Below are positions 15,750 through 20,000 of a stretch of DNA of 20,000 nt, piece after piece. Origin of the DNA: an uncultured virus (IMG/VR IMGVR_UViG_3300009151_000055). Taxonomy: Duplodnaviria; Heunggongvirae; Uroviricota; Caudoviricetes. Position numbers and translations under genes: made by a program. Where the stretch lies: positions 58,123 through 78,122 of IMG/VR virus record IMGVR_UViG_3300009151_000055. The stretch is one strand, 5' to 3'. Numbering within the stretch: position 1 is the stretch's first letter; each line of letters opens with the position of its first letter. The notes beneath the pieces were generated by a model. The model ran no database searches. It was given only the letters and a program-made list of their open reading frames with translations, and was not told the DNA's origin.

Positions 15750-16247
15750 ATGGAAGCAGTGTTAATATTTCAAAGCTATGAACTTCCTTCTTGGCAGGAA
15801 ATAGAGCCAGGGATGATGTTTACAAGTCTTGATAAATATTCTGATTACGTTAGAATCAGGACAATTTCTCAAGAACAGAGTCTTCGTCTTGATAAGGAAT
15901 TGTTCATTCGAGAGAATGGACATCCAGTAAAGCCATATATATGTGCAATGGATGGCACAATCCTTGCTCGACCAGAAGAAATAGGTTGGTGGGATTGTGG
16001 AGAAGATTGCGACTCCTATACAGAAATAGGAGAAAAGGAATTCAATCTGATTCTTGAGAACGAAGGACTCATTGATGTAGAAACAACATACGATGACGAA
16101 GAAGGTTATCAGTTGTTGTACATGGATGGCAAAGTGATAATTTCTGTTCTTCAGGAGTACGAAGAATCTGAAGAAGAATACAGTGATGAAATATCTAATC
16201 ATTTTAAAACTAACGACGATGATAATGACGAGTCAGAAGAGTGGTAA
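15750..16247 (+). CDS. Hypothetical acidic protein
   Basis: ORF track 15687..16247; ATG 15750 (MEAVLIF) after AAACCAAATACA is the likelier start. Confidence 0.7.
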   Translation: MEAVLIFQSYELPSWQEIEPGMMFTSLDKYSDYVRIRTISQEQSLRLDKELFIRENGHPVKPYICAMDGTILARPEEIGWWDCGEDCDSYTEIGEKEFNLILENEGLIDVETTYDDEEGYQLLYMDGKVIISVLQEYEESEEEYSDEISNHFKTNDDDNDESEEW

Positions 16248-16386
16248 TACACTTACACGTCCTCCAGTGATCAATTATGAACCTCTTACATTCCAAGAAT
16301 GGTGCGAGGAGTTTAATGTATCTCTATTGTTTAACAAAATACCAACACACATAGAACATGAGTACAGTATATTGGAAAATGCGTAA
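16225..16386 (+). CDS. Small hypothetical protein
   Basis: ORF track 16183..16386, probable start at ATG 16225; bridges two genes. Confidence 0.45.
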   Translation: MTSQKSGNTLTRPPVINYEPLTFQEWCEEFNVSLLFNKIPTHIEHEYSILENA

Positions 16387-16612
16387 TGGATCTTTGATTG
16401 ATGTTGACGAAATGGATATCAATCATCTGCGTAATACGCTAAAAATGATAATAAGGGCTTCACAAGCCCAAGTTCGCAATTCGCAAATTGCAAACAAACC
16501 TGCTCCTAAACTTGAGCTTAAAGGTGAAATGTCTCAATTGTTTAATGATGATTTTCCTGGAGATGATGATGAGTATAATCCTTACGAAGACTATAAAGCG
16601 TTTCTTTTATAA
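16358..16612 (+). CDS. Conserved phage hypothetical protein
   Basis: WKMRNGSLIDVDEMDINHLRNTLKMI matches the common phage motif W...G..I....M...HL.N. Confidence 0.7.
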   Translation: MSTVYWKMRNGSLIDVDEMDINHLRNTLKMIIRASQAQVRNSQIANKPAPKLELKGEMSQLFNDDFPGDDDEYNPYEDYKAFLL

Positions 16613-16627
16613 CCAAAAAATAGATAT

Positions 16628-16894
16628 ATGATACTTACGTACGGATTCCATCCTGTCACTAAGGATGAGACAAAAGAGAAAATTGTTAAATATCTAGAGG
16701 CTATTGATATCTCTTCTAAAATCATTGAAGGAGGAATCAATGGCTCTTTAGAACTAGAAGTGGAAGATGGCATTCATCCTGATAACATCCTAGAACTAGG
16801 GTCAATACTTGGGATGCATGAGACCATTTTCTCTTGGGAAGATGCTGAAAATGAAGACTTCCCATTCGAAGGAGATGACGATGCTGATGTATAA
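16628..16894 (+). CDS. Hypothetical acidic protein
   Basis: 88 aa ORF ending at a terminator. Confidence 0.65.
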   Translation: MILTYGFHPVTKDETKEKIVKYLEAIDISSKIIEGGINGSLELEVEDGIHPDNILELGSILGMHETIFSWEDAENEDFPFEGDDDADV

Positions 16895-16896
16895 AT

Positions 16897-16931
16897 AAAA
16901 AAAGGGAGAATAAATTAATATTCTCCCTTTT
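16897..16931. terminator. Bidirectional intrinsic terminator
   Basis: AAAAGGGAGAATA-AATTAA-TATTCTCCCTTTT, flanked by A and T runs, between convergent genes. Confidence 0.75.
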
Positions 16932-16946
16932 CATTAAGAGATTGAA

Positions 16947-17120
16947 TTAGGCTGTTTTCACCACTTTTGAAGCAACACTCCAAATAGCACCAATTAATGT
17001 GCTAATTGCACCAATTGCTTCTACAGAAGTTGCTTCATCAATTACACCTTTGGTGATGAGAAATCCACCAACGAATGTCAATACGTGTCTAACAAGTCCT
17101 AAAATTTGATCTTTGTTCAT
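16947..17120 (-). CDS. Putative holin (Pam3-gp28-like small 2-TM protein), not in ORF track
   Basis: MNKDQILGLVRHVLTFVGGFLITKGVIDEATSVEAIGAISTLIGAIWSVASKVVKTA*; RH.LT..GG.L...G and terminal WS motifs; has its own promoter and terminator. Confidence 0.7.
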   Translation of the reverse strand: MNKDQILGLVRHVLTFVGGFLITKGVIDEATSVEAIGAISTLIGAIWSVASKVVKTA

Positions 17121-17137
17121 AGTGAAAATATTTTAAA

Positions 17138-17168
17138 CAAATATACAAAAATATTTTATGTACACAAA
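17138..17168 (-). promoter_or_regulatory. Bacteroidota sigma70 promoter for the holin-like gene
   Basis: Minus strand TTTG-N19-TATATTTG, a perfect consensus. Confidence 0.7.
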
Positions 17169-17448
17169 TGGTGTAGAAGAAATAAAAATAGAATATGAGT
17201 TATTTCCTGAAAAATATGCAACAATTTACGTAGATGTAAATTGGATGCACCAAAGAGAAAAGATGTACACATCTAATGGAGACATTGGATGGGATGGAAC
17301 ATCATCTTGGGAAATTAGTCATATATCGTGGGGAGATATTCCTCACATGTTCAGAGATGAAAAAAAAGTGGAAGAAGCTCTGAAGAAGAAAATATCACAC
17401 ATTTCTTCTGATGGAATAGTCTTTAATCCCTTGTTAAAGAAACACTAA
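17158..17448 (+). CDS. Hypothetical protein
   Basis: 96 aa ORF. Confidence 0.65.
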   Translation: MYTNGVEEIKIEYELFPEKYATIYVDVNWMHQREKMYTSNGDIGWDGTSSWEISHISWGDIPHMFRDEKKVEEALKKKISHISSDGIVFNPLLKKH

Positions 17449-17461
17449 TTTTGTATATTTG
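17431..17461 (+). promoter_or_regulatory. Bacteroidota sigma70 promoter
   Basis: TTG-N20-TATATTTG; shares the 13-mer TTTTGTATATTTG with the holin promoter. Confidence 0.6.
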
Positions 17462-17475
17462 CATAAACCAAATAT

Positions 17476-17850
17476 ATGAATAAGTTTATATTAGTGAGAA
17501 TAGCCATCATAACAGCATTGATAACACAAGTGAGTCATGCTGCATTCGTGTTTAAGAGCATTTCTAAAACAAACGGATGGGTGGATGAGATTATTGCATA
17601 TGTATTCGCTGTTTCTCTAGAACTGTCAATATACATATTCACAATAGAACAAAAGAGAAGCGTAGCAACATTCTTTGCAATAATCTCATTTCTCATTAAT
17701 CTATTATACTATTGGAATTTCAATCAATTTGATTTTGCGTTTTATGCCAGCTTGTTGATTTCGTTCACAATTCCTACAACCATTTGGAATTACAGCGATC
17801 TTATAAACAATGAGCCAAGAAAACGTCCATACATTAGAAAAACAGAATAA
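17476..17850 (+). CDS. Multi-pass membrane protein (about 4 TM segments)
   Basis: 124 aa with four hydrophobic segments and a basic C-terminal tail. Confidence 0.7.
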   Translation: MNKFILVRIAIITALITQVSHAAFVFKSISKTNGWVDEIIAYVFAVSLELSIYIFTIEQKRSVATFFAIISFLINLLYYWNFNQFDFAFYASLLISFTIPTTIWNYSDLINNEPRKRPYIRKTE

Positions 17851-17972
17851 AAATATTGAGAGAGTGCATGAACACGAGGGCTATGTTAATTCTAGATGAA
17901 TGCATAGGTAGTAAGTAGACACTTTGGGAGGACTAGCTATCCTCCCCTCTCACTTTTTTAAAAAACAATAAA

Positions 17973-18110
17973 ATGAGAAAAACACCAAGTCTTATTAAGC
18001 AAATCATGGAGAAATCTAAAAAAGATCCATGGTATGTAAAACTAAAAAGAAGAATAAGATTAAAATTATTCATTTTTAAATGTTCTATAAAGCAATGGTG
18101 GTGGAAATAA
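17973..18110 (+). CDS. Small basic protein (45 aa, not in ORF track)
   Basis: MRKTPSLIKQIMEKSKKDPWYVKLKRRIRLKLFIFKCSIKQWWWK* with an A-rich leader. Confidence 0.45.
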   Translation: MRKTPSLIKQIMEKSKKDPWYVKLKRRIRLKLFIFKCSIKQWWWK

Positions 18111-18113
18111 ATT

Positions 18114-18258
18114 GATGGAGTGGCGGAAGGTGTTAGGGGTGTCCTCTAACGTGGTAGACGCTATTATCTGAGAGGGTGCTTGTGAGTAGTATGCAAAACT
18201 ACATAGATACAAGTGTTATAGAAGCACCACATTGTGGGTTCAAATCCCACCTCCATCA
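18114..18258 (+). tRNA. Aberrant, enlarged tRNA-like element (Leu-type D arm, expanded anticodon domain)
   Basis: Acceptor GATGGAG/CTCCATC+A, D arm TGGCGGAA...TGGTAGACGC, T arm GTGGG-TTCAAAT-CCCAC; 145 nt. Confidence 0.7.
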
Positions 18259-18348
18259 CATAGTTATTTGGGTGCTTATCCAGTAACTTTTGATAATGTG
18301 TCCCAGTCTGTTGTGGATCGCAACCACTCAGAACATCTCTTATCAAGT

Positions 18349-18447
18349 AATGTAGTGGCGGAATTGGTATACGCAGCTCTATAAACGGGTGGAAGTAATA
18401 ACATTGAAAACAGCTTCTAAATGCAGGTTCGAGTCCTGCCTACATTG
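18349..18447 (+). tRNA. tRNA-Leu-like element with a non-canonical anticodon arm (possibly TAA)
   Basis: Acceptor AATGTAG/CTACATT, D arm TGGCGGAATTGGTATACGC, long variable arm GAAGT/GCTTC, T arm GCAGG-TTCGAGT-CCTGC. Confidence 0.7.
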
Positions 18448-18547
18448 CAGACTTTCATCTAAGGCTACACTGAGAACTGATGAAACTTGTTGGTAGCTGT
18501 AGACTACACGAACAAGGGTGATATAAGAATCCCACTTACCTATCAAT

Positions 18548-18574
18548 GAGGAGTACCAAAGCTCCTCTCTTTTT
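18548..18574 (+). terminator. Intrinsic terminator closing the tRNA-like cluster
   Basis: GAGGAG-TACCAAAG-CTCCTC-TCTTTTT. Confidence 0.65.
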
Positions 18575-18593
18575 AAACTTTTAAAACAGAAAT

Positions 18594-18797
18594 ATGAAAA
18601 AAATGAAAATGTTAGTAGTTTTGTTATTAATTAGTGCATCGTTGTTTGCTGTGCCAATGACAATTAATGTGTGTAAGGTTTGTGGAAACACAGATGGTTA
18701 TCCACAATATGCTGCTCATAATCCACTTGTACATGGGTATAAAGCCTTTGTAAGGTGGTGGAACAGCACAGATTTTATGTTTGACTTTAATATGTAA
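18594..18797 (+). CDS. Small secreted protein with signal peptide
   Basis: MKKMKMLVVLLLISASLFA signal-peptide-like N-terminus followed by CKVC. Confidence 0.6.
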   Translation: MKKMKMLVVLLLISASLFAVPMTINVCKVCGNTDGYPQYAAHNPLVHGYKAFVRWWNSTDFMFDFNM

Positions 18798-18802
18798 AAA
18801 AT

Positions 18803-18828
18803 AAAGGGAGTGTAAAAGCTCCCTTTTT
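18803..18828 (+). terminator. Intrinsic terminator
   Basis: AAAGGGAG-TGTAAAAG-CTCCCTTTTT. Confidence 0.7.
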
Positions 18829-18841
18829 AAATTTTAAAATT

Positions 18842-19060
18842 ATGAATAGACCAATTAAGGAAACTTACACTGTATCGTTAACGTTTAATGACATTGATTC
18901 AGATAATCCATTAGAAGCTGTGAAAAAAATAATTGGATGGATTAAAGACGATGGGGTAGATTATATGATTTTTGATGTTATTGGTGAAACCAGTAATAAT
19001 AAATTCACGGTTGATATGTCAGAAGAAGAAGAAGATGCAGTATTACCAAACAATGAATAA
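18842..19060 (+). CDS. Hypothetical protein
   Basis: 72 aa ORF. Confidence 0.65.
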   Translation: MNRPIKETYTVSLTFNDIDSDNPLEAVKKIIGWIKDDGVDYMIFDVIGETSNNKFTVDMSEEEEDAVLPNNE

Positions 19061-19352
19061 ATTTAAAATTATGAGCATACCAACAGCAAAAGAATTTGTA
19101 CTAAATCAAAATGATGGATACTTAGCAGGAGATTACACTCCTAATGAAGTATATCGTATCATGATTGGATTTGCTAAATTACACGTAAAAGCAGCATTGA
19201 AATCAGCAAGTGAAAAAGCTTATGTAGAATATGTTGACTTAGAGACTAATGAAATATTTGATTATACAGATGTAATTACAGATGATAATGTAGGAGCTGA
19301 TGTAAATGTAAAATCAATATTAAAAGCTTACCCATTAAACAATATAAAATGA
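19053..19352 (+). CDS. Hypothetical protein
   Basis: ORF track 18972..19352, likely start 19053 or 19071; MIGFAKLHVKAALKSASEKA...SILKAYPL resembles Bacteroidota-phage hypotheticals. Confidence 0.65.
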   Translation: MNKFKIMSIPTAKEFVLNQNDGYLAGDYTPNEVYRIMIGFAKLHVKAALKSASEKAYVEYVDLETNEIFDYTDVITDDNVGADVNVKSILKAYPLNNIK

Positions 19353-19891
19353 AAAATATACATTTATTGCCCACAGATAAACCAAGTAGGTTAAGCTACT
19401 TTCAAGGTAAATTACTTTTTGATAAAGAAGAATTTTATAAAACATTTATAAGTCAAAACATCTACATCATTTCTTCAGAAGAAATTAAAAAAGGAGATTA
19501 TGTACTTAGTGGAACTAATACAATGATTAAATGCATGTATCCTAATAATGTAGTTGATAGAGATGTTAAAAAAATCATCCTAACAACAGACCAAGACTTA
19601 ATCAATGATGGTGTACAAGCCATTGATGATGAGTTCTTAGAATGGTTCATTAAAAACCCAACTTGTGAGGAAATAGAAATTAAATTAGTAGAATTTGAAG
19701 TTGATATGGAATTAGGTGAATCGTGTATAGAATATGGTAGTTATTATAAAATAATATTTCCAAGAGAACAACCTTATCAAGAGTTATTTGACTACTTAGC
19801 AAATGAATTAGGTGTTAATGCACTTTTAACTCAAATGCAAGAAATTGAAACAATAGTTATGTCAAAACAAAAACAAATAAGTTATGAATAA
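19349..19891 (+). CDS. Hypothetical protein (YI.S.EEIK.GD...KKII.TTD family)
   Basis: 180 aa; motifs recurrent in Bacteroidota phage accessory genes. Confidence 0.7.
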   Translation: MKNIHLLPTDKPSRLSYFQGKLLFDKEEFYKTFISQNIYIISSEEIKKGDYVLSGTNTMIKCMYPNNVVDRDVKKIILTTDQDLINDGVQAIDDEFLEWFIKNPTCEEIEIKLVEFEVDMELGESCIEYGSYYKIIFPREQPYQELFDYLANELGVNALLTQMQEIETIVMSKQKQISYE

Positions 19892-20000
19892 AGCAATGCA
19901 AGAATTAATTGATTGGGCAAAATCCTTACAATACAATCAGCAACAATGTATAGATTGGATAGTAATTAAAGATAAAGCAGAACAATTACTTGAAAAAGAA
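19884..20000 (+). CDS. Hypothetical protein, truncated by the window end
   Basis: MNKAMQELIDWAKSLQYNQQQCIDWIVIKDKAEQLLEKE... is open to the window edge. Confidence 0.55.
   Translation, partial: MNKAMQELIDWAKSLQYNQQQCIDWIVIKDKAEQLLEKE

What the first reader, a model, noticed from the sequence alone, without database searches (positions are those of the whole stretch)
18114..18258. Enlarged tRNA-like RNA with a hairpin grafted into the D-loop and a swollen anticodon domain
Seen: perfect 7-bp acceptor (18114-20/18251-57), canonical T arm (GTGGG-TTCAAAT-CCCAC) and Leu-type D arm (GCGGAA...TGGTAGACGC). The D-loop contains an extra 8-bp hairpin GTTAGGGG-TGT-CCTCTAAC (18132-50). About 70 nt replace the anticodon/variable arms: GGTGCTT/AAGCACC (18175-81/18222-28) encloses a 5-bp stem with a 7-nt loop, GTAGT-ATGCAAA-ACTAC, which has U33, GCA (Cys) and A37 in anticodon-like positions. 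Inference: keeping the elbow and acceptor while adding structured inserts suggests a functional tRNA mimic (decoy for host anticodon nucleases, ribosome or synthetase binder, or an RNA with a removable insert) rather than a decaying pseudogene.
Basis: partly seen in the sequence, partly recalled or inferred. Interest (0 to 1): 0.8.

Follow-up and report, generated by a model that had tools for sequence, protein, structure and literature searches.

The report
Phage leucine-tRNA look-alike carrying RNA cargo
This is a real small-RNA gene of an uncultured freshwater phage: a leucine-tRNA body with an extra hairpin in its D-loop and a folded "cargo" domain where the anticodon arm should be, one member of a large, mostly unannotated phage family whose job is unknown.

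Summary
Window 18114-18258 (+) has a 7-bp acceptor stem, A73, a T arm, a Leu-type D arm with an 8-bp hairpin in the D-loop, and 72 nt in place of the anticodon and variable arms. Rfam tRNA scores 32 bits; ARAGORN finds nothing.

It is not an orphan. The same D-arm-plus-hairpin pattern matches 74 places in 73 viral contigs, and 73 of the 74 have a full scaffold. Only 1 of 52 matches in bacterial genomes looks real. Acceptor, T stem and D-loop hairpin all covary.

The 72-nt middle is a conserved cargo class (15 distinct metagenome copies). GGTGCTT/AAGCACC covaries at 5 of 7 pairs and the inner hairpin covaries too. Its 7-nt "GCA" loop occurs in this copy only; relatives have 8-9-nt or T-loop-like loops. 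It is not an anticodon arm.

Close relatives carry the same cargo with no D-loop hairpin or with another insert, so the parts are modular. The closest known RNA is phage T5 RNA1, annotated "tRNA-like stable RNA with unknown functions".

Best reading: a processed, stable, non-decoding tRNA-Leu mimic. It may be charged with leucine. Its target is unknown. It is a new variant of a known but unexplained kind.

The parts
18114..18120 (+). Acceptor stem, 5' strand (GATGGAG)
   Evidence: Pairs perfectly with 18251-57. In the family, 6 of 7 acceptor pairs show compensatory changes.
18123..18131 (+). D stem 5' strand (GCG, 18123-25) and 5' half of the D-loop (G, A14, A15, then GGT)
   Evidence: The D-arm letters were fixed by my search pattern, so their invariance in the family carries no information.
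18132..18150 (+). Hairpin inserted in the D-loop, 5' of G18G19 (8 bp, loop TGT)
   Evidence: In the family alignment A1, 6 of its 8 pairs show compensatory changes, 95% of cells are paired, and one U.G is kept in 36 of 47 sequences. The window has U-A at that position. The hairpin is absent from close relatives with the same cargo.
18152..18161 (+). 3' half of the D-loop (TGGTAGA, with G18G19) and D stem 3' strand (CGC)
   Evidence: This is the Leu-type D arm also seen in ordinary phage tRNA-Leu genes.
18162..18174 (+). 13-nt linker TATTATCTGAGAG. Read as tRNA positions 26-38 it looks like the 5' half of a tRNA-Leu(GAG) anticodon arm (loop CTGAGAG, 18168-74)
   Evidence: Its first 11 nt were part of my search pattern. 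The next base, A (position 37), was not in the pattern and is the same in 15 of 15. TTAT 18164-67 can pair with ATAG 18218-21.
18175..18181 (+). Long-range helix P-m, 5' strand (GGTGCTT)
   Evidence: Pairs with 18222-28. 5 of 7 pairs show compensatory changes and 96% of cells are paired across 15 distinct homologues.
18186..18202 (+). Inner hairpin c (GTAGT-ATGCAAA-ACTAC)
   Evidence: A hairpin of 4 bp or more is kept in 14 of 15 homologues with five different stem sequences. The loop is 7 nt ATGCAAA in 1 of 15, 9 nt in 6, 8 nt in 2, 7 nt TTCGAGT/TTCGATT/TTCAATT (T-loop-like) in 5, and one copy has only a 3-bp stem with a 14-nt loop.
18218..18221 (+). ATAG, candidate partner of TTAT 18164-67. 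The pairing forms a pseudoknot with P-m and sits where a vestigial anticodon stem would be
   Evidence: 60 of 60 cells paired; TAG is the same in 15 of 15 and the fourth base is A or G. The 5' side was fixed by my search pattern, so this is consistent but not shown.
18222..18228 (+). P-m, 3' strand (AAGCACC)
18229..18233 (+). ACATT joiner ending in U48, the partner of A15
   Evidence: The last base before the T stem is T in 60 of 60 distinct family members, and it was not part of the search pattern.
18234..18250 (+). T arm (GTGGG-TTCAAAT-CCCAC)
   Evidence: 4 of 5 pairs show compensatory changes in A1 and 3 of 5 in A2.
18251..18258 (+). Acceptor stem 3' strand (CTCCATC) and discriminator A73. 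No CCA is encoded (next bases are CAT)
   Evidence: The discriminator is A in 43 of 60 distinct family members.
18349..18447 (+). Second Leu-type tRNA-like gene (element 2, 99 nt), 90 nt downstream. It has no D-loop hairpin, a 4-bp stem with loop TATAAAC, and an oversized variable arm
   Evidence: RF00005 39.2 bits; R1 52.5 bits; ARAGORN finds nothing. A relative's contig changes 18376-77 together with 18388-89 so that the 4-bp stem is kept (my reading of table 3).
18548..18575 (+). Terminator-like hairpin with a T run that closes the two-RNA unit

Best explanation
Element 1 is a gene for a stable, non-decoding RNA descended from a type-II tRNA-Leu, of the kind annotated in phage T5 as RNA1 ('tRNA-like stable RNA with unknown functions').

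Shown:
- The tRNA 'top half' and core are kept under selection: acceptor stem, T arm, 3-bp D stem, G18G19, and A15 with U48.
- The anticodon arm is not kept.
- The 72-nt middle is a conserved cargo. It has a covarying long-range helix (18175-81/18222-28) that encloses a covarying hairpin (18186-18202).
- An optional covarying hairpin sits in the D-loop.
- Scaffold, D-loop insert and cargo are found in different combinations in related phages.

Inferred mechanism:
1. The gene is transcribed together with element 2, ending at the terminator-like hairpin at 18548.
2. The tRNA-like half recruits host RNase P at 18114, 3' trimming and CCA addition after 18258. This gives an L-shaped RNA of about 148 nt that resists decay.
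3. It cannot read codons.
4. It carries every E. coli-type LeuRS determinant (A73, A15-U48, G18G19, an intact D/T elbow). LeuRS does not need the anticodon arm, so the RNA may be leucylated or at least bind LeuRS.
5. It then acts as a tRNA mimic that occupies a host tRNA-binding factor. A tRNA-directed defence enzyme is my first guess. The cargo and the D-loop hairpin would act as specificity or protection modules.

My odds: processed stable RNA 0.8; non-decoding 0.8; leucylated 0.4; decoy or anti-defence role 0.3.
For: Family and selection:
- The pattern (D arm 5' half, 15-35 nt, D arm 3' half) matches 74 places in 73 viral contigs. 73 of the 74 have a matching acceptor stem and T arm.
- In 47 of the 60 distinct sequences, 98% of pair cells are paired. 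Compensatory changes occur in 6/7 acceptor, 6/8 D-loop hairpin and 4/5 T-stem pairs. 0 of 500 shuffles reach the observed score, and slid controls give 34-45% paired.
- U48 is present in 60 of 60 and A73 in 43 of 60.

Phage-restricted:
- Of 52 pattern matches in 185,579 species genomes, 4 pass my loose script and only 1 has a T-loop and hairpin insert (a Sphingobacterium MAG).

Cargo class:
- 18 metagenome loci, 15 distinct.
- P-m has 5/7 compensatory pairs and 96% of cells paired.
- Hairpin c is kept with five different stems, but its loop is not anticodon-like.

Modularity:
- The same cargo occurs with no D-loop insert (10 of the 13 full-length distinct copies), with the window's 22-nt insert (1), or with a different insert of about 40 nt (2).
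- A relative's contig shows the same thing.
- 3 of 59 hairpin-bearing cargoes have homologues on hairpin-less scaffolds in a sample of 121.

Link to a known stable RNA:
- The family model R1 scores T5 RNA1 at 34.4 bits, above T5's own tRNA-Leu at 27.9.
- T4 rnaC scores 21.7 bits.

No decoding tRNAs nearby:
- The only RF00005 matches in the 93%-complete twin genome and in two complete relatives are these expanded elements.

LeuRS:
- The review PMC9976931 (passages read) states that E. coli tRNA-Leu needs A73, A15-U48, G18G19 and the D/T tertiary pairs. [quoted passage not shown] Variants lacking both arms are still charged.
Against: - There is no expression, processing or charging evidence for this RNA or for any hairpin-bearing member (no RNA data: see Tried and rejected).
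- The D-arm letters were fixed by my search patterns, so part of the 'Leu identity' conservation is an effect of how I collected the sequences.
- The linker reads as a canonical Leu(GAG) anticodon loop. TTAT/ATAG is paired in 60 of 60 cells, so a vestigial or even usable anticodon stem cannot be excluded.
- The hairpin lies just 5' of G18G19, in a part of the D-loop that the review says matters for leucylation. It could abolish charging.
- No protein is shared by the family's neighbourhoods: the top cluster is present in 20 of 74 loci. So there is no partner to point to.
- The decoy role rests only on analogy with published phage tRNA counter-defence (search listings).
Confidence: 0.6

Rival explanations
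1. It is a pre-tRNA-Leu(GAG) with removable inserts. The D-loop hairpin and about 43 nt after position 38 (18175-18217) are cut out. That leaves a decoding tRNA with stem TTAT/ATAG, loop CTGAGAG and a 12-nt variable region.
For: - The linker is a textbook Leu anticodon loop (C32, U33, GAG, A37). A37 was not part of my pattern and is the same in 15 of 15.
- TTAT/ATAG is paired in 60 of 60 cells.
- Other members show a Leu-type 7-nt loop followed by extra bases inside a 5-bp stem: L084, L090 and L231. This is my reading by eye.
- Lak phages of Prevotella were reported to carry tRNAs with 'enigmatic introns' (PMC6784885, passages read).
Against: - The best-covarying helix pairs the would-be intron (18175-81) with the would-be exon (18222-28).
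- Two separate excisions would be needed.
- I see no bulge-helix-bulge shape. The D-loop hairpin is a plain 8-bp stem.
- No group I or other ribozyme family matches in Rfam.
- No RtcB, RNA ligase (PF09414) or CCA-adding enzyme was found in 3 of 3 near-complete related genomes.
- Most family cargoes have no Leu-type loop at that place (by eye).
- The insert itself is conserved and structured.
Confidence: 0.15
2. The conserved scaffold segments matter mainly at the DNA level. They serve as recombination sites through which phages exchange cassettes, and the RNA is a by-product.
For: - The locus is swapped among relatives. Contigs of three runs replace 17955/61-18288 or 17959-18152 with other tRNA-like sequence, and one joins 18233 to 18448 through a different T arm.
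- Cargo, D-loop insert and acceptor occur in different combinations.
- The acceptor AGTCAGG is shared by 30 of 60 distinct members from many contigs.
Against: - Compensatory changes keep RNA pairing in four helices.
- A U.G kept in 36 of 47 sequences would be a mismatch in DNA and C.A on the other strand. That points to selection on this RNA strand.
- U48 in 60 of 60 fits a tRNA tertiary pair, not a DNA site.
- Recombination between scaffolds does not exclude an RNA function.
Confidence: 0.1
3. It is a decaying tRNA-Leu pseudogene that has picked up junk insertions.
For: - ARAGORN rejects it.
- The RF00005 score is only just above the cut-off.
- The phage has no ordinary tRNAs alongside it.
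Against: - Covariation is seen in every helix tested.
- Copies are identical in three viral contigs.
- The cargo class is conserved from AT-rich to GC-rich phages.
- The family is large.
Confidence: 0.03

Closest known systems
Phage T5 RNA1 (NC_005859 30501-30644, annotated 'tRNA-like stable RNA with unknown functions')
   Same: It has a Leu-type D arm, acceptor stem, T arm and an 80-nt middle in place of a normal anticodon arm. A hairpin ends 2 nt before the T stem. It lies among phage tRNA genes. The family model R1 scores it at 34.4 bits, above T5's real tRNA-Leu.
   Different: T5 RNA1 has no D-loop hairpin and a different cargo, which by eye is a long irregular anticodon-arm-like rod plus a plain variable arm. 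It sits in a tRNA cluster, whereas the window's phage has no ordinary tRNAs. Its function is also unknown, so the comparison names the kind and not the mechanism.
Phage T4 rnaC / rnaD (species 1 and 2 stable RNAs)
   Same: They are stable small RNAs in the phage tRNA region. The 3' 92 nt of rnaC form an acceptor-like stem and a T arm around an odd middle (R1 21.7 bits).
   Different: rnaC has no Leu-type D arm and carries a 5' extension of about 47 nt. The match is weak and rests on the T arm and acceptor only.
Canonical bacterial or phage type-II tRNA-Leu
   Same: The acceptor stem, A73, U8, the 3-bp D stem with the same loop letters, G18G19, A15 with U48, and the T arm all match. RF00005 scores above its cut-off.
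   Different: The D-loop is enlarged by a 19-nt hairpin plus flanking bases (a 22-nt insert). There is no 5-bp anticodon stem with a 7-nt loop at positions 27-43. The middle is 72 nt, against 30-35 nt in 35 ordinary phage tRNA-Leu genes. Position 1 is mostly A in the family, against G in the ordinary ones.
tmRNA
   Same: The topology is the same: a tRNA-like acceptor and T domain with a large structured insert, including pseudoknots, where the anticodon arm would be. It uses a synthetase that ignores the anticodon (recalled knowledge).
   Different: ARAGORN finds no tmRNA. Positions 3 and 70 are U-A, not G.U. There is no tag reading frame, the length is 145 nt and not about 350 nt, and the D arm is a full one.
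'Enigmatic introns' in tRNA genes of Lak megaphages (PMC6784885)
   Same: Phage tRNA genes interrupted by conserved inserts, in phages of Bacteroidota (passages read).
   Different: Those were predicted as anticodon-loop introns by tRNAscan in its eukaryote mode. No D-loop hairpin and no Leu scaffold family is described there, and splicing was not shown.
Engineered 'tRNA scaffold' for expressing recombinant RNA in E. coli
   Same: A foreign structured RNA replaces the anticodon arm of a tRNA so that the cell processes and stabilises it. The idea is recalled; PMC3753655 was seen only as a search listing and abstract start.
   Different: That is a laboratory design. Here the arrangement is natural and conserved, and it has an additional D-loop module.

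Membership tests
Decoding tRNA (Rfam RF00005; ARAGORN criteria) | 7-bp acceptor stem, discriminator base, and a 5-bp T stem with a 7-nt T-loop | tested here: met
   RF00005 scores 32.0 bits against a cut-off of 29.
Decoding tRNA (Rfam RF00005; ARAGORN criteria) | 5-bp anticodon stem with a 7-nt loop directly after position 26 | tested here: not met
   ARAGORN finds no gene. In the Rfam alignment the anticodon stem is marked as non-pairing. Covariation supports a different fold for the middle.
Decoding tRNA (Rfam RF00005; ARAGORN criteria) | D-loop of ordinary size (about 7-11 nt) | tested here: not met
   33 nt lie between the D-stem strands (18126-18158), including an 8-bp hairpin.
Phage Leu-type tRNA-like RNAs with a D-loop hairpin (family defined here; model R1) | Leu-type D arm interrupted 5' of G18G19 by a hairpin of about 7-8 bp, plus a paired acceptor stem and a T arm | tested here: met
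   R1 scores 95.7 bits, but the window is a training sequence. 73 of 74 viral pattern matches share the layout. Covariation.
Phage Leu-type tRNA-like RNAs with a D-loop hairpin (family defined here; model R1) | U.G wobble at the third pair of the hairpin | tested here: not met
   The window has U-A there (18134 with 18148). 36 of 47 family members have U.G. The window is an atypical member, with a 22-nt insert against the usual 19-21 nt.
T5 RNA1-type 'tRNA-like stable RNA' | Leu-type scaffold with an expanded, non-anticodon middle | tested here: met
   R1 scores T5 RNA1 at 34.4 bits. Sequence read; annotation.
T5 RNA1-type 'tRNA-like stable RNA' | Accumulates as a discrete stable RNA in infected cells | not testable with these tools
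   No RNA run holds the locus.
Intron-bearing tRNA (archaeal bulge-helix-bulge type or bacterial group I type) | A splice motif (bulge-helix-bulge) or a self-splicing ribozyme core, and exons that rejoin to a normal cloverleaf | tested here: not met
   No ribozyme or intron family matches in Rfam. The D-loop hairpin is a plain stem. P-m pairs 'intron' with 'exon'. The bulge-helix-bulge check was done by eye only.
tmRNA | Alanine-type acceptor stem (G3.U70), tag reading frame, pseudoknot series | tested here: not met
   ARAGORN finds no tmRNA. Positions 3 and 70 are U-A.
LeuRS substrate (E. coli rules) | A73, A15-U48, G18G19 and an intact D/T elbow; the anticodon is not needed | tested here: inconclusive
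   All the letters are present and the rules come from PMC9976931. The hairpin next to G18G19 may disturb recognition, and the host's LeuRS is unknown. Charging cannot be tested here.

The most novel reading that the evidence does not exclude
Phages use a tRNA-Leu chassis as a natural plug-in platform. The chassis ensures RNase P and CCA processing, stability and perhaps leucylation. Interchangeable cargo domains and D-loop hairpins, swapped by recombination, aim the resulting anticodon-less (leucyl-)tRNA mimic at different host tRNA-binding machines, such as tRNA-directed defence enzymes. This would make the long-unexplained T5/T4 'stable RNAs' the first seen members of a widespread RNA-based counter-defence toolkit.
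Probability: 0.2. Interest if true: 0.9.

Novelty: new variant of a known kind. Interest (0 to 1): 0.68.

Why it matters
- tRNA-like stable RNAs of phages T4 and T5 carry 'unknown function' in their genome annotation. From memory, they have been known for decades without a function.
- This window shows that they belong to a large class invisible to tRNA finders. ARAGORN calls none of the copies I tested, and Rfam has no family for the cargoes.
- In a capped sample of viral contigs, Leu-type scaffolds with expanded middles (31) were about as common as ordinary tRNA-Leu genes (35).
- The family gives a concrete, testable set of modules: chassis, D-loop hairpin with a kept U.G, and cargo classes with pseudoknots and T-loop-like hairpins.
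- T5 RNA1 in E. coli is a tractable model in which to test processing, leucylation and interplay with tRNA-targeting defence systems.
- The family is also a natural counterpart of the engineered tRNA scaffold.
- My full-text searches found no description of the D-loop-hairpin family. A 2023 catalogue of about 10,000 candidate viral RNAs (PMC10690425, passages read) mentions unnamed 'tRNA-like' candidates. I did not open its supplements, and they may already contain this family.

Tried and rejected
- ARAGORN on the window and on two identical copies found no tRNA or tmRNA.
- blastn of 17900-18600, and of a typical family member, against 50,697 phage records found no match.
- The pattern of the inner hairpin (17 nt) in viral contigs gave 32 loci. 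30 are an unrelated coding gene and 2 are the window's own copies. This was a wasted scan.
- I looked for synteny through the upstream 124-aa membrane protein. It has 30 relatives, but R1 finds no tRNA-like element beside any of the 28 non-identical ones.
- tblastx and blastn of window 16000-20000 against the tRNA-like loci of terminase (TerL) relatives gave no hit.
- I looked for a protein shared by family neighbourhoods (3,162 ORFs from 74 loci). The best cluster is in 20 loci and none is universal.
- An Rfam E-value scan of 20 family loci found no family over the cargoes.
- No RNA holder is listed for the locus. The runs that were laid are DNA contigs only.
- An alternative pseudoknot, TATCTG 18165-70 with TAGATA 18204-09, has 84% of cells paired, four invariant pairs and two pairs broken in 6-8 of 15. 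I prefer TTAT/ATAG, but neither is proven.
- RNAalifold also proposed pairing between the D-loop GGTA and the linker. I rejected it because those Gs belong to the elbow.
- By eye I considered hammerhead-like and T-box-like motifs in the linker (motifs recalled). I dropped them because the letters do not fit and Rfam gives nothing.
- In three hairpin-bearing members (L093, L101, L147) my hand pairing of the linker with the loop of the long-range helix shows 4 compensatory pairs. With only three sequences and no tool count, I treat this as a lead.
- RtcB, RNA ligase PF09414 and PolyA_pol PF01743 are absent from 3 of 3 near-complete related genomes.
- A 94-nt R1 hit in Leptolyngbya phage Lbo-JY46 proved to be a misalignment across two ordinary tRNA-Leu genes.
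- Earlier-findings look-ups by place and by sequence returned nothing.
Full report
**What is there.** The window is the last 20 kb of a 78-kb uncultured viral contig. It carries a head-packaging module on the minus strand: major head protein, portal and large terminase. The terminase is most like those of Leptolyngbya phage Lbo-JY46 (39.6% identity), Cellulophaga and Flavobacterium phages, and crAss-like phages. The runs that hold the locus are freshwater metagenomes.

Rfam's tRNA model matches end to end at 32.0 bits against a cut-off of 29, but it marks the anticodon stem as unpaired and skips 27 nt in the D-loop. ARAGORN calls nothing. A second Leu-type tRNA-like gene of 99 nt lies 90 nt downstream at 18349-18447 (39.2 bits), and a terminator-like hairpin follows at 18548. 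In the 93%-complete twin genome and in two complete relatives, the only tRNA-model matches are such expanded elements. This phage lineage carries no ordinary tRNA genes.

**A large phage family shares the D-loop hairpin.**
- A pattern made of the two halves of the D arm separated by 15-35 free bases matches 74 places in 73 viral contigs.
- In 73 of the 74 places, a 7-bp acceptor partner and a T arm follow at the right spacing. Element lengths range from 103 to 208 nt.
- There are 60 distinct sequences. I aligned 47, leaving out the 12 longest and one near-duplicate.
- On that alignment 98% of pair cells are paired. Compensatory double changes occur in 6 of 7 acceptor pairs, 6 of 8 D-loop-hairpin pairs and 4 of 5 T-stem pairs. 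No shuffle out of 500 reaches the observed values, and sliding the partners drops pairing to 34-45%.
- The three D-stem pairs never vary, but they were fixed by the pattern.
- One U.G in the hairpin is kept in 36 of 47 sequences. This argues for selection on this RNA strand. The window's copy has U-A there and a 22-nt insert where 19-21 nt is usual, so it is an atypical member.
- The base before the T stem is U in 60 of 60, which fits the partner of A15. The discriminator is A in 43 of 60. Position 1 is A in 38 of 60.
- As an empirical control, the same pattern in one genome of each of 185,579 prokaryote species gave 52 matches. Four pass my loose script, and only one, in a Sphingobacterium MAG, has a real T-loop and hairpin. 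The family is essentially confined to phages.
- In 39 of the 73 loci with 10-kb flanks, ARAGORN finds ordinary tRNA or tmRNA genes; in most of these some lie next to the element on the same strand.

**The hairpin is optional and the middle is the variable part.**
- A covariance model of the family (R1) found elements in 8 of 50 records of terminase relatives, and in 6 of the 10 that are at least 90% complete. The best-scoring relatives' elements (L231-L233, L239) have Leu-type D arms without the hairpin but with expanded middles; the lowest-scoring hits are less clearly Leu-type.
- I scanned viral contigs for the hairpin-less Leu D arm. Of these, 35 are ordinary tRNA-Leu genes (middle 22-35 nt, mostly 30-35), 31 have expanded middles (43-206 nt) and typically the acceptor AGTCAGG, and 46 show no scaffold within 260 nt.
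- Three of 59 hairpin-bearing cargoes have clear homologues on hairpin-less scaffolds in that sample.

**The window's own cargo.**
- A 20-nt pattern spanning the end of the D arm and the linker found 18 metagenome loci, 15 of them distinct, from AT-rich to GC-rich contigs.
- GGTGCTT/AAGCACC (18175-81/18222-28) shows compensatory changes in 5 of 7 pairs and 96% pairing.
- The inner hairpin is kept with at least 4 bp in 14 of 15, using five different stem sequences.
- Its loop is the 7-nt ATGCAAA only in the window's copy. It is 9 nt in 6 relatives and 8 nt in 2. In 5 it is a 7-nt loop with the letters of a T-loop. One copy has only a weak 3-bp stem with a 14-nt loop. The 'Cys anticodon' is therefore an accident of this copy.
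- The 13-nt linker does read like positions 26-38 of a tRNA-Leu(GAG). Its TTAT can pair with an invariant ATAG/GTAG next to the 3' strand of the long helix (60 of 60 cells). That would make an H-type pseudoknot, or a vestigial anticodon stem. Because my pattern fixed the 5' side, this is consistent but not demonstrated.
- Of the 13 full-length distinct copies, 10 have no D-loop insert, one (the window's) has the 22-nt insert, and two have a different insert of about 40 nt at the same site.
- Contigs of related phages in public runs show the same picture. One has the window's cargo with 11 differences, no hairpin and another acceptor stem. One joins the cargo to another T arm and lacks element 2. 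Others replace the whole of element 1 with other tRNA-like sequence.
- Chassis, D-loop insert and cargo are therefore separable modules, and the locus is a swap site.

**What it is like.**
Its RNA1, annotated 'tRNA-like stable RNA with unknown functions', has a Leu-type D arm, an 80-nt middle and a T arm. R1 scores it at 34.4 bits, above T5's true tRNA-Leu at 27.9.
- T4 rnaC (species 1 RNA) gives a weaker match through its acceptor-like stem and T arm.
- So the broad kind is known and is seen as a stable RNA in classic phages, but it has no assigned function. The D-loop-hairpin branch and the modular cargo are what is new.
- My seven full-text searches found no description of it. A catalogue of candidate viral RNAs mentions unnamed tRNA-like candidates (PMC10690425, passages read). 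I did not read its supplements.

**How it most likely works.**
- Shown: a conserved L-shape core with no anticodon arm.
- Inferred: host RNase P, 3' trimming and CCA addition yield a stable RNA that cannot decode.
- The choice of a leucine chassis may matter. According to the identity review (PMC9976931, passages read), E. coli LeuRS needs A73, A15-U48, G18G19 and the D/T elbow. It does not need the anticodon or the variable arm, and it still charges variants lacking both arms. All these letters are present here.
- The RNA could therefore be leucylated or at least bind LeuRS, though the hairpin next to G18G19 might prevent this.
- Published work shows that phage tRNAs counter tRNA-cutting defence systems (search listings only). 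The swap-site behaviour and the absence of a conserved protein partner fit a fast-evolving accessory RNA aimed at host factors. That is as far as the evidence goes.
- The intron reading keeps about 15%. The Leu-type loop is conserved and Lak phages have unexplained tRNA 'introns'. Against it: the best-supported helix bridges 'intron' and 'exon', two excisions would be needed, no splice motif or ribozyme is seen, and no ligase genes were found.

**Limits.**
- There is no RNA evidence.
- D-arm and linker conservation is inflated by the patterns I used to collect the sequences.
- The cargo's tertiary fold is unresolved.
- The host is unknown. Bacteroidota is a guess from terminase relatives and the single bacterial-genome hit.

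Noticed in passing
window 18349-18447 (+): A second Leu-type tRNA-like gene (99 nt) with no D-loop hairpin. It has a 4-bp stem with loop TATAAAC (anticodon-like TAA, but A where U33 should be) and a variable arm with a 16-nt loop. In a relative's contig, 18376-77 and 18388-89 change together and keep the stem, while the middle differs at about 25 positions and the scaffold is conserved.
   Followed up: partly
window 17974-18111 (+): A 45-codon, lysine/arginine-rich reading frame ends 2 nt before the tRNA-like gene. The upstream sequence is not shared by the metagenome homologues of the element, so it is probably not a conserved partner.
   Followed up: no
window 17926-17959 (+): A GC-rich hairpin (GGGAGGA...TCCTCCC) is followed 7 nt later by a T run. 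It looks like the terminator of the upstream gene, but the scan did not call it.
   Followed up: no
window 18448-18547 (+): The 100-nt spacer after element 2 contains a nested hairpin (CTTGTT...AACAAG around GTAG...CTAC) and is partly conserved in relatives' contigs. It may be a third small RNA or a processing element.
   Followed up: no
L481 and L483 (metagenome contigs), D-loop of the element: Two copies of the window's cargo class carry a different insert of about 40 nt at the same D-loop site. By eye it looks like a hairpin. The D-loop 5' of G18G19 appears to be a general insertion point.
   Followed up: partly
L496 = Leptolyngbya phage Lbo-JY46 124040-124141 (minus strand): An unannotated 102-nt R1 hit (37 bits) has an acceptor stem, a T arm and a 49-nt middle ending in a helix 2 nt before the T stem. 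ARAGORN does not call it. It is a candidate family member in a cultured phage.
   Followed up: partly
L119 803-864 (minus strand): A freshwater-1 RNA (Rfam RF02979, 79.1 bits, above its cut-off) lies in the same phage tRNA array as a D-hairpin element.
   Followed up: no
L169 6642-7037: ARAGORN predicts a tmRNA with a tag ending in ...ALAA in a viral contig that also carries a D-hairpin element.
   Followed up: no
L102 and L107 cargoes; L404-L406; L095: Some cargoes contain internal T-arm-like hairpins (for example CGGG-TTCGAGT-CCCG in L102). Several contigs carry two or three of these elements in a row, each with a different cargo.
   Followed up: no
L355-L474 sample: Many viral contigs have a Leu-type D arm and the start of a normal anticodon arm, followed by unrelated sequence and no T arm within 260 nt (46 of 112 distinct). 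These could be prophage att-site half-tRNAs or tRNA genes with long introns.
   Followed up: no
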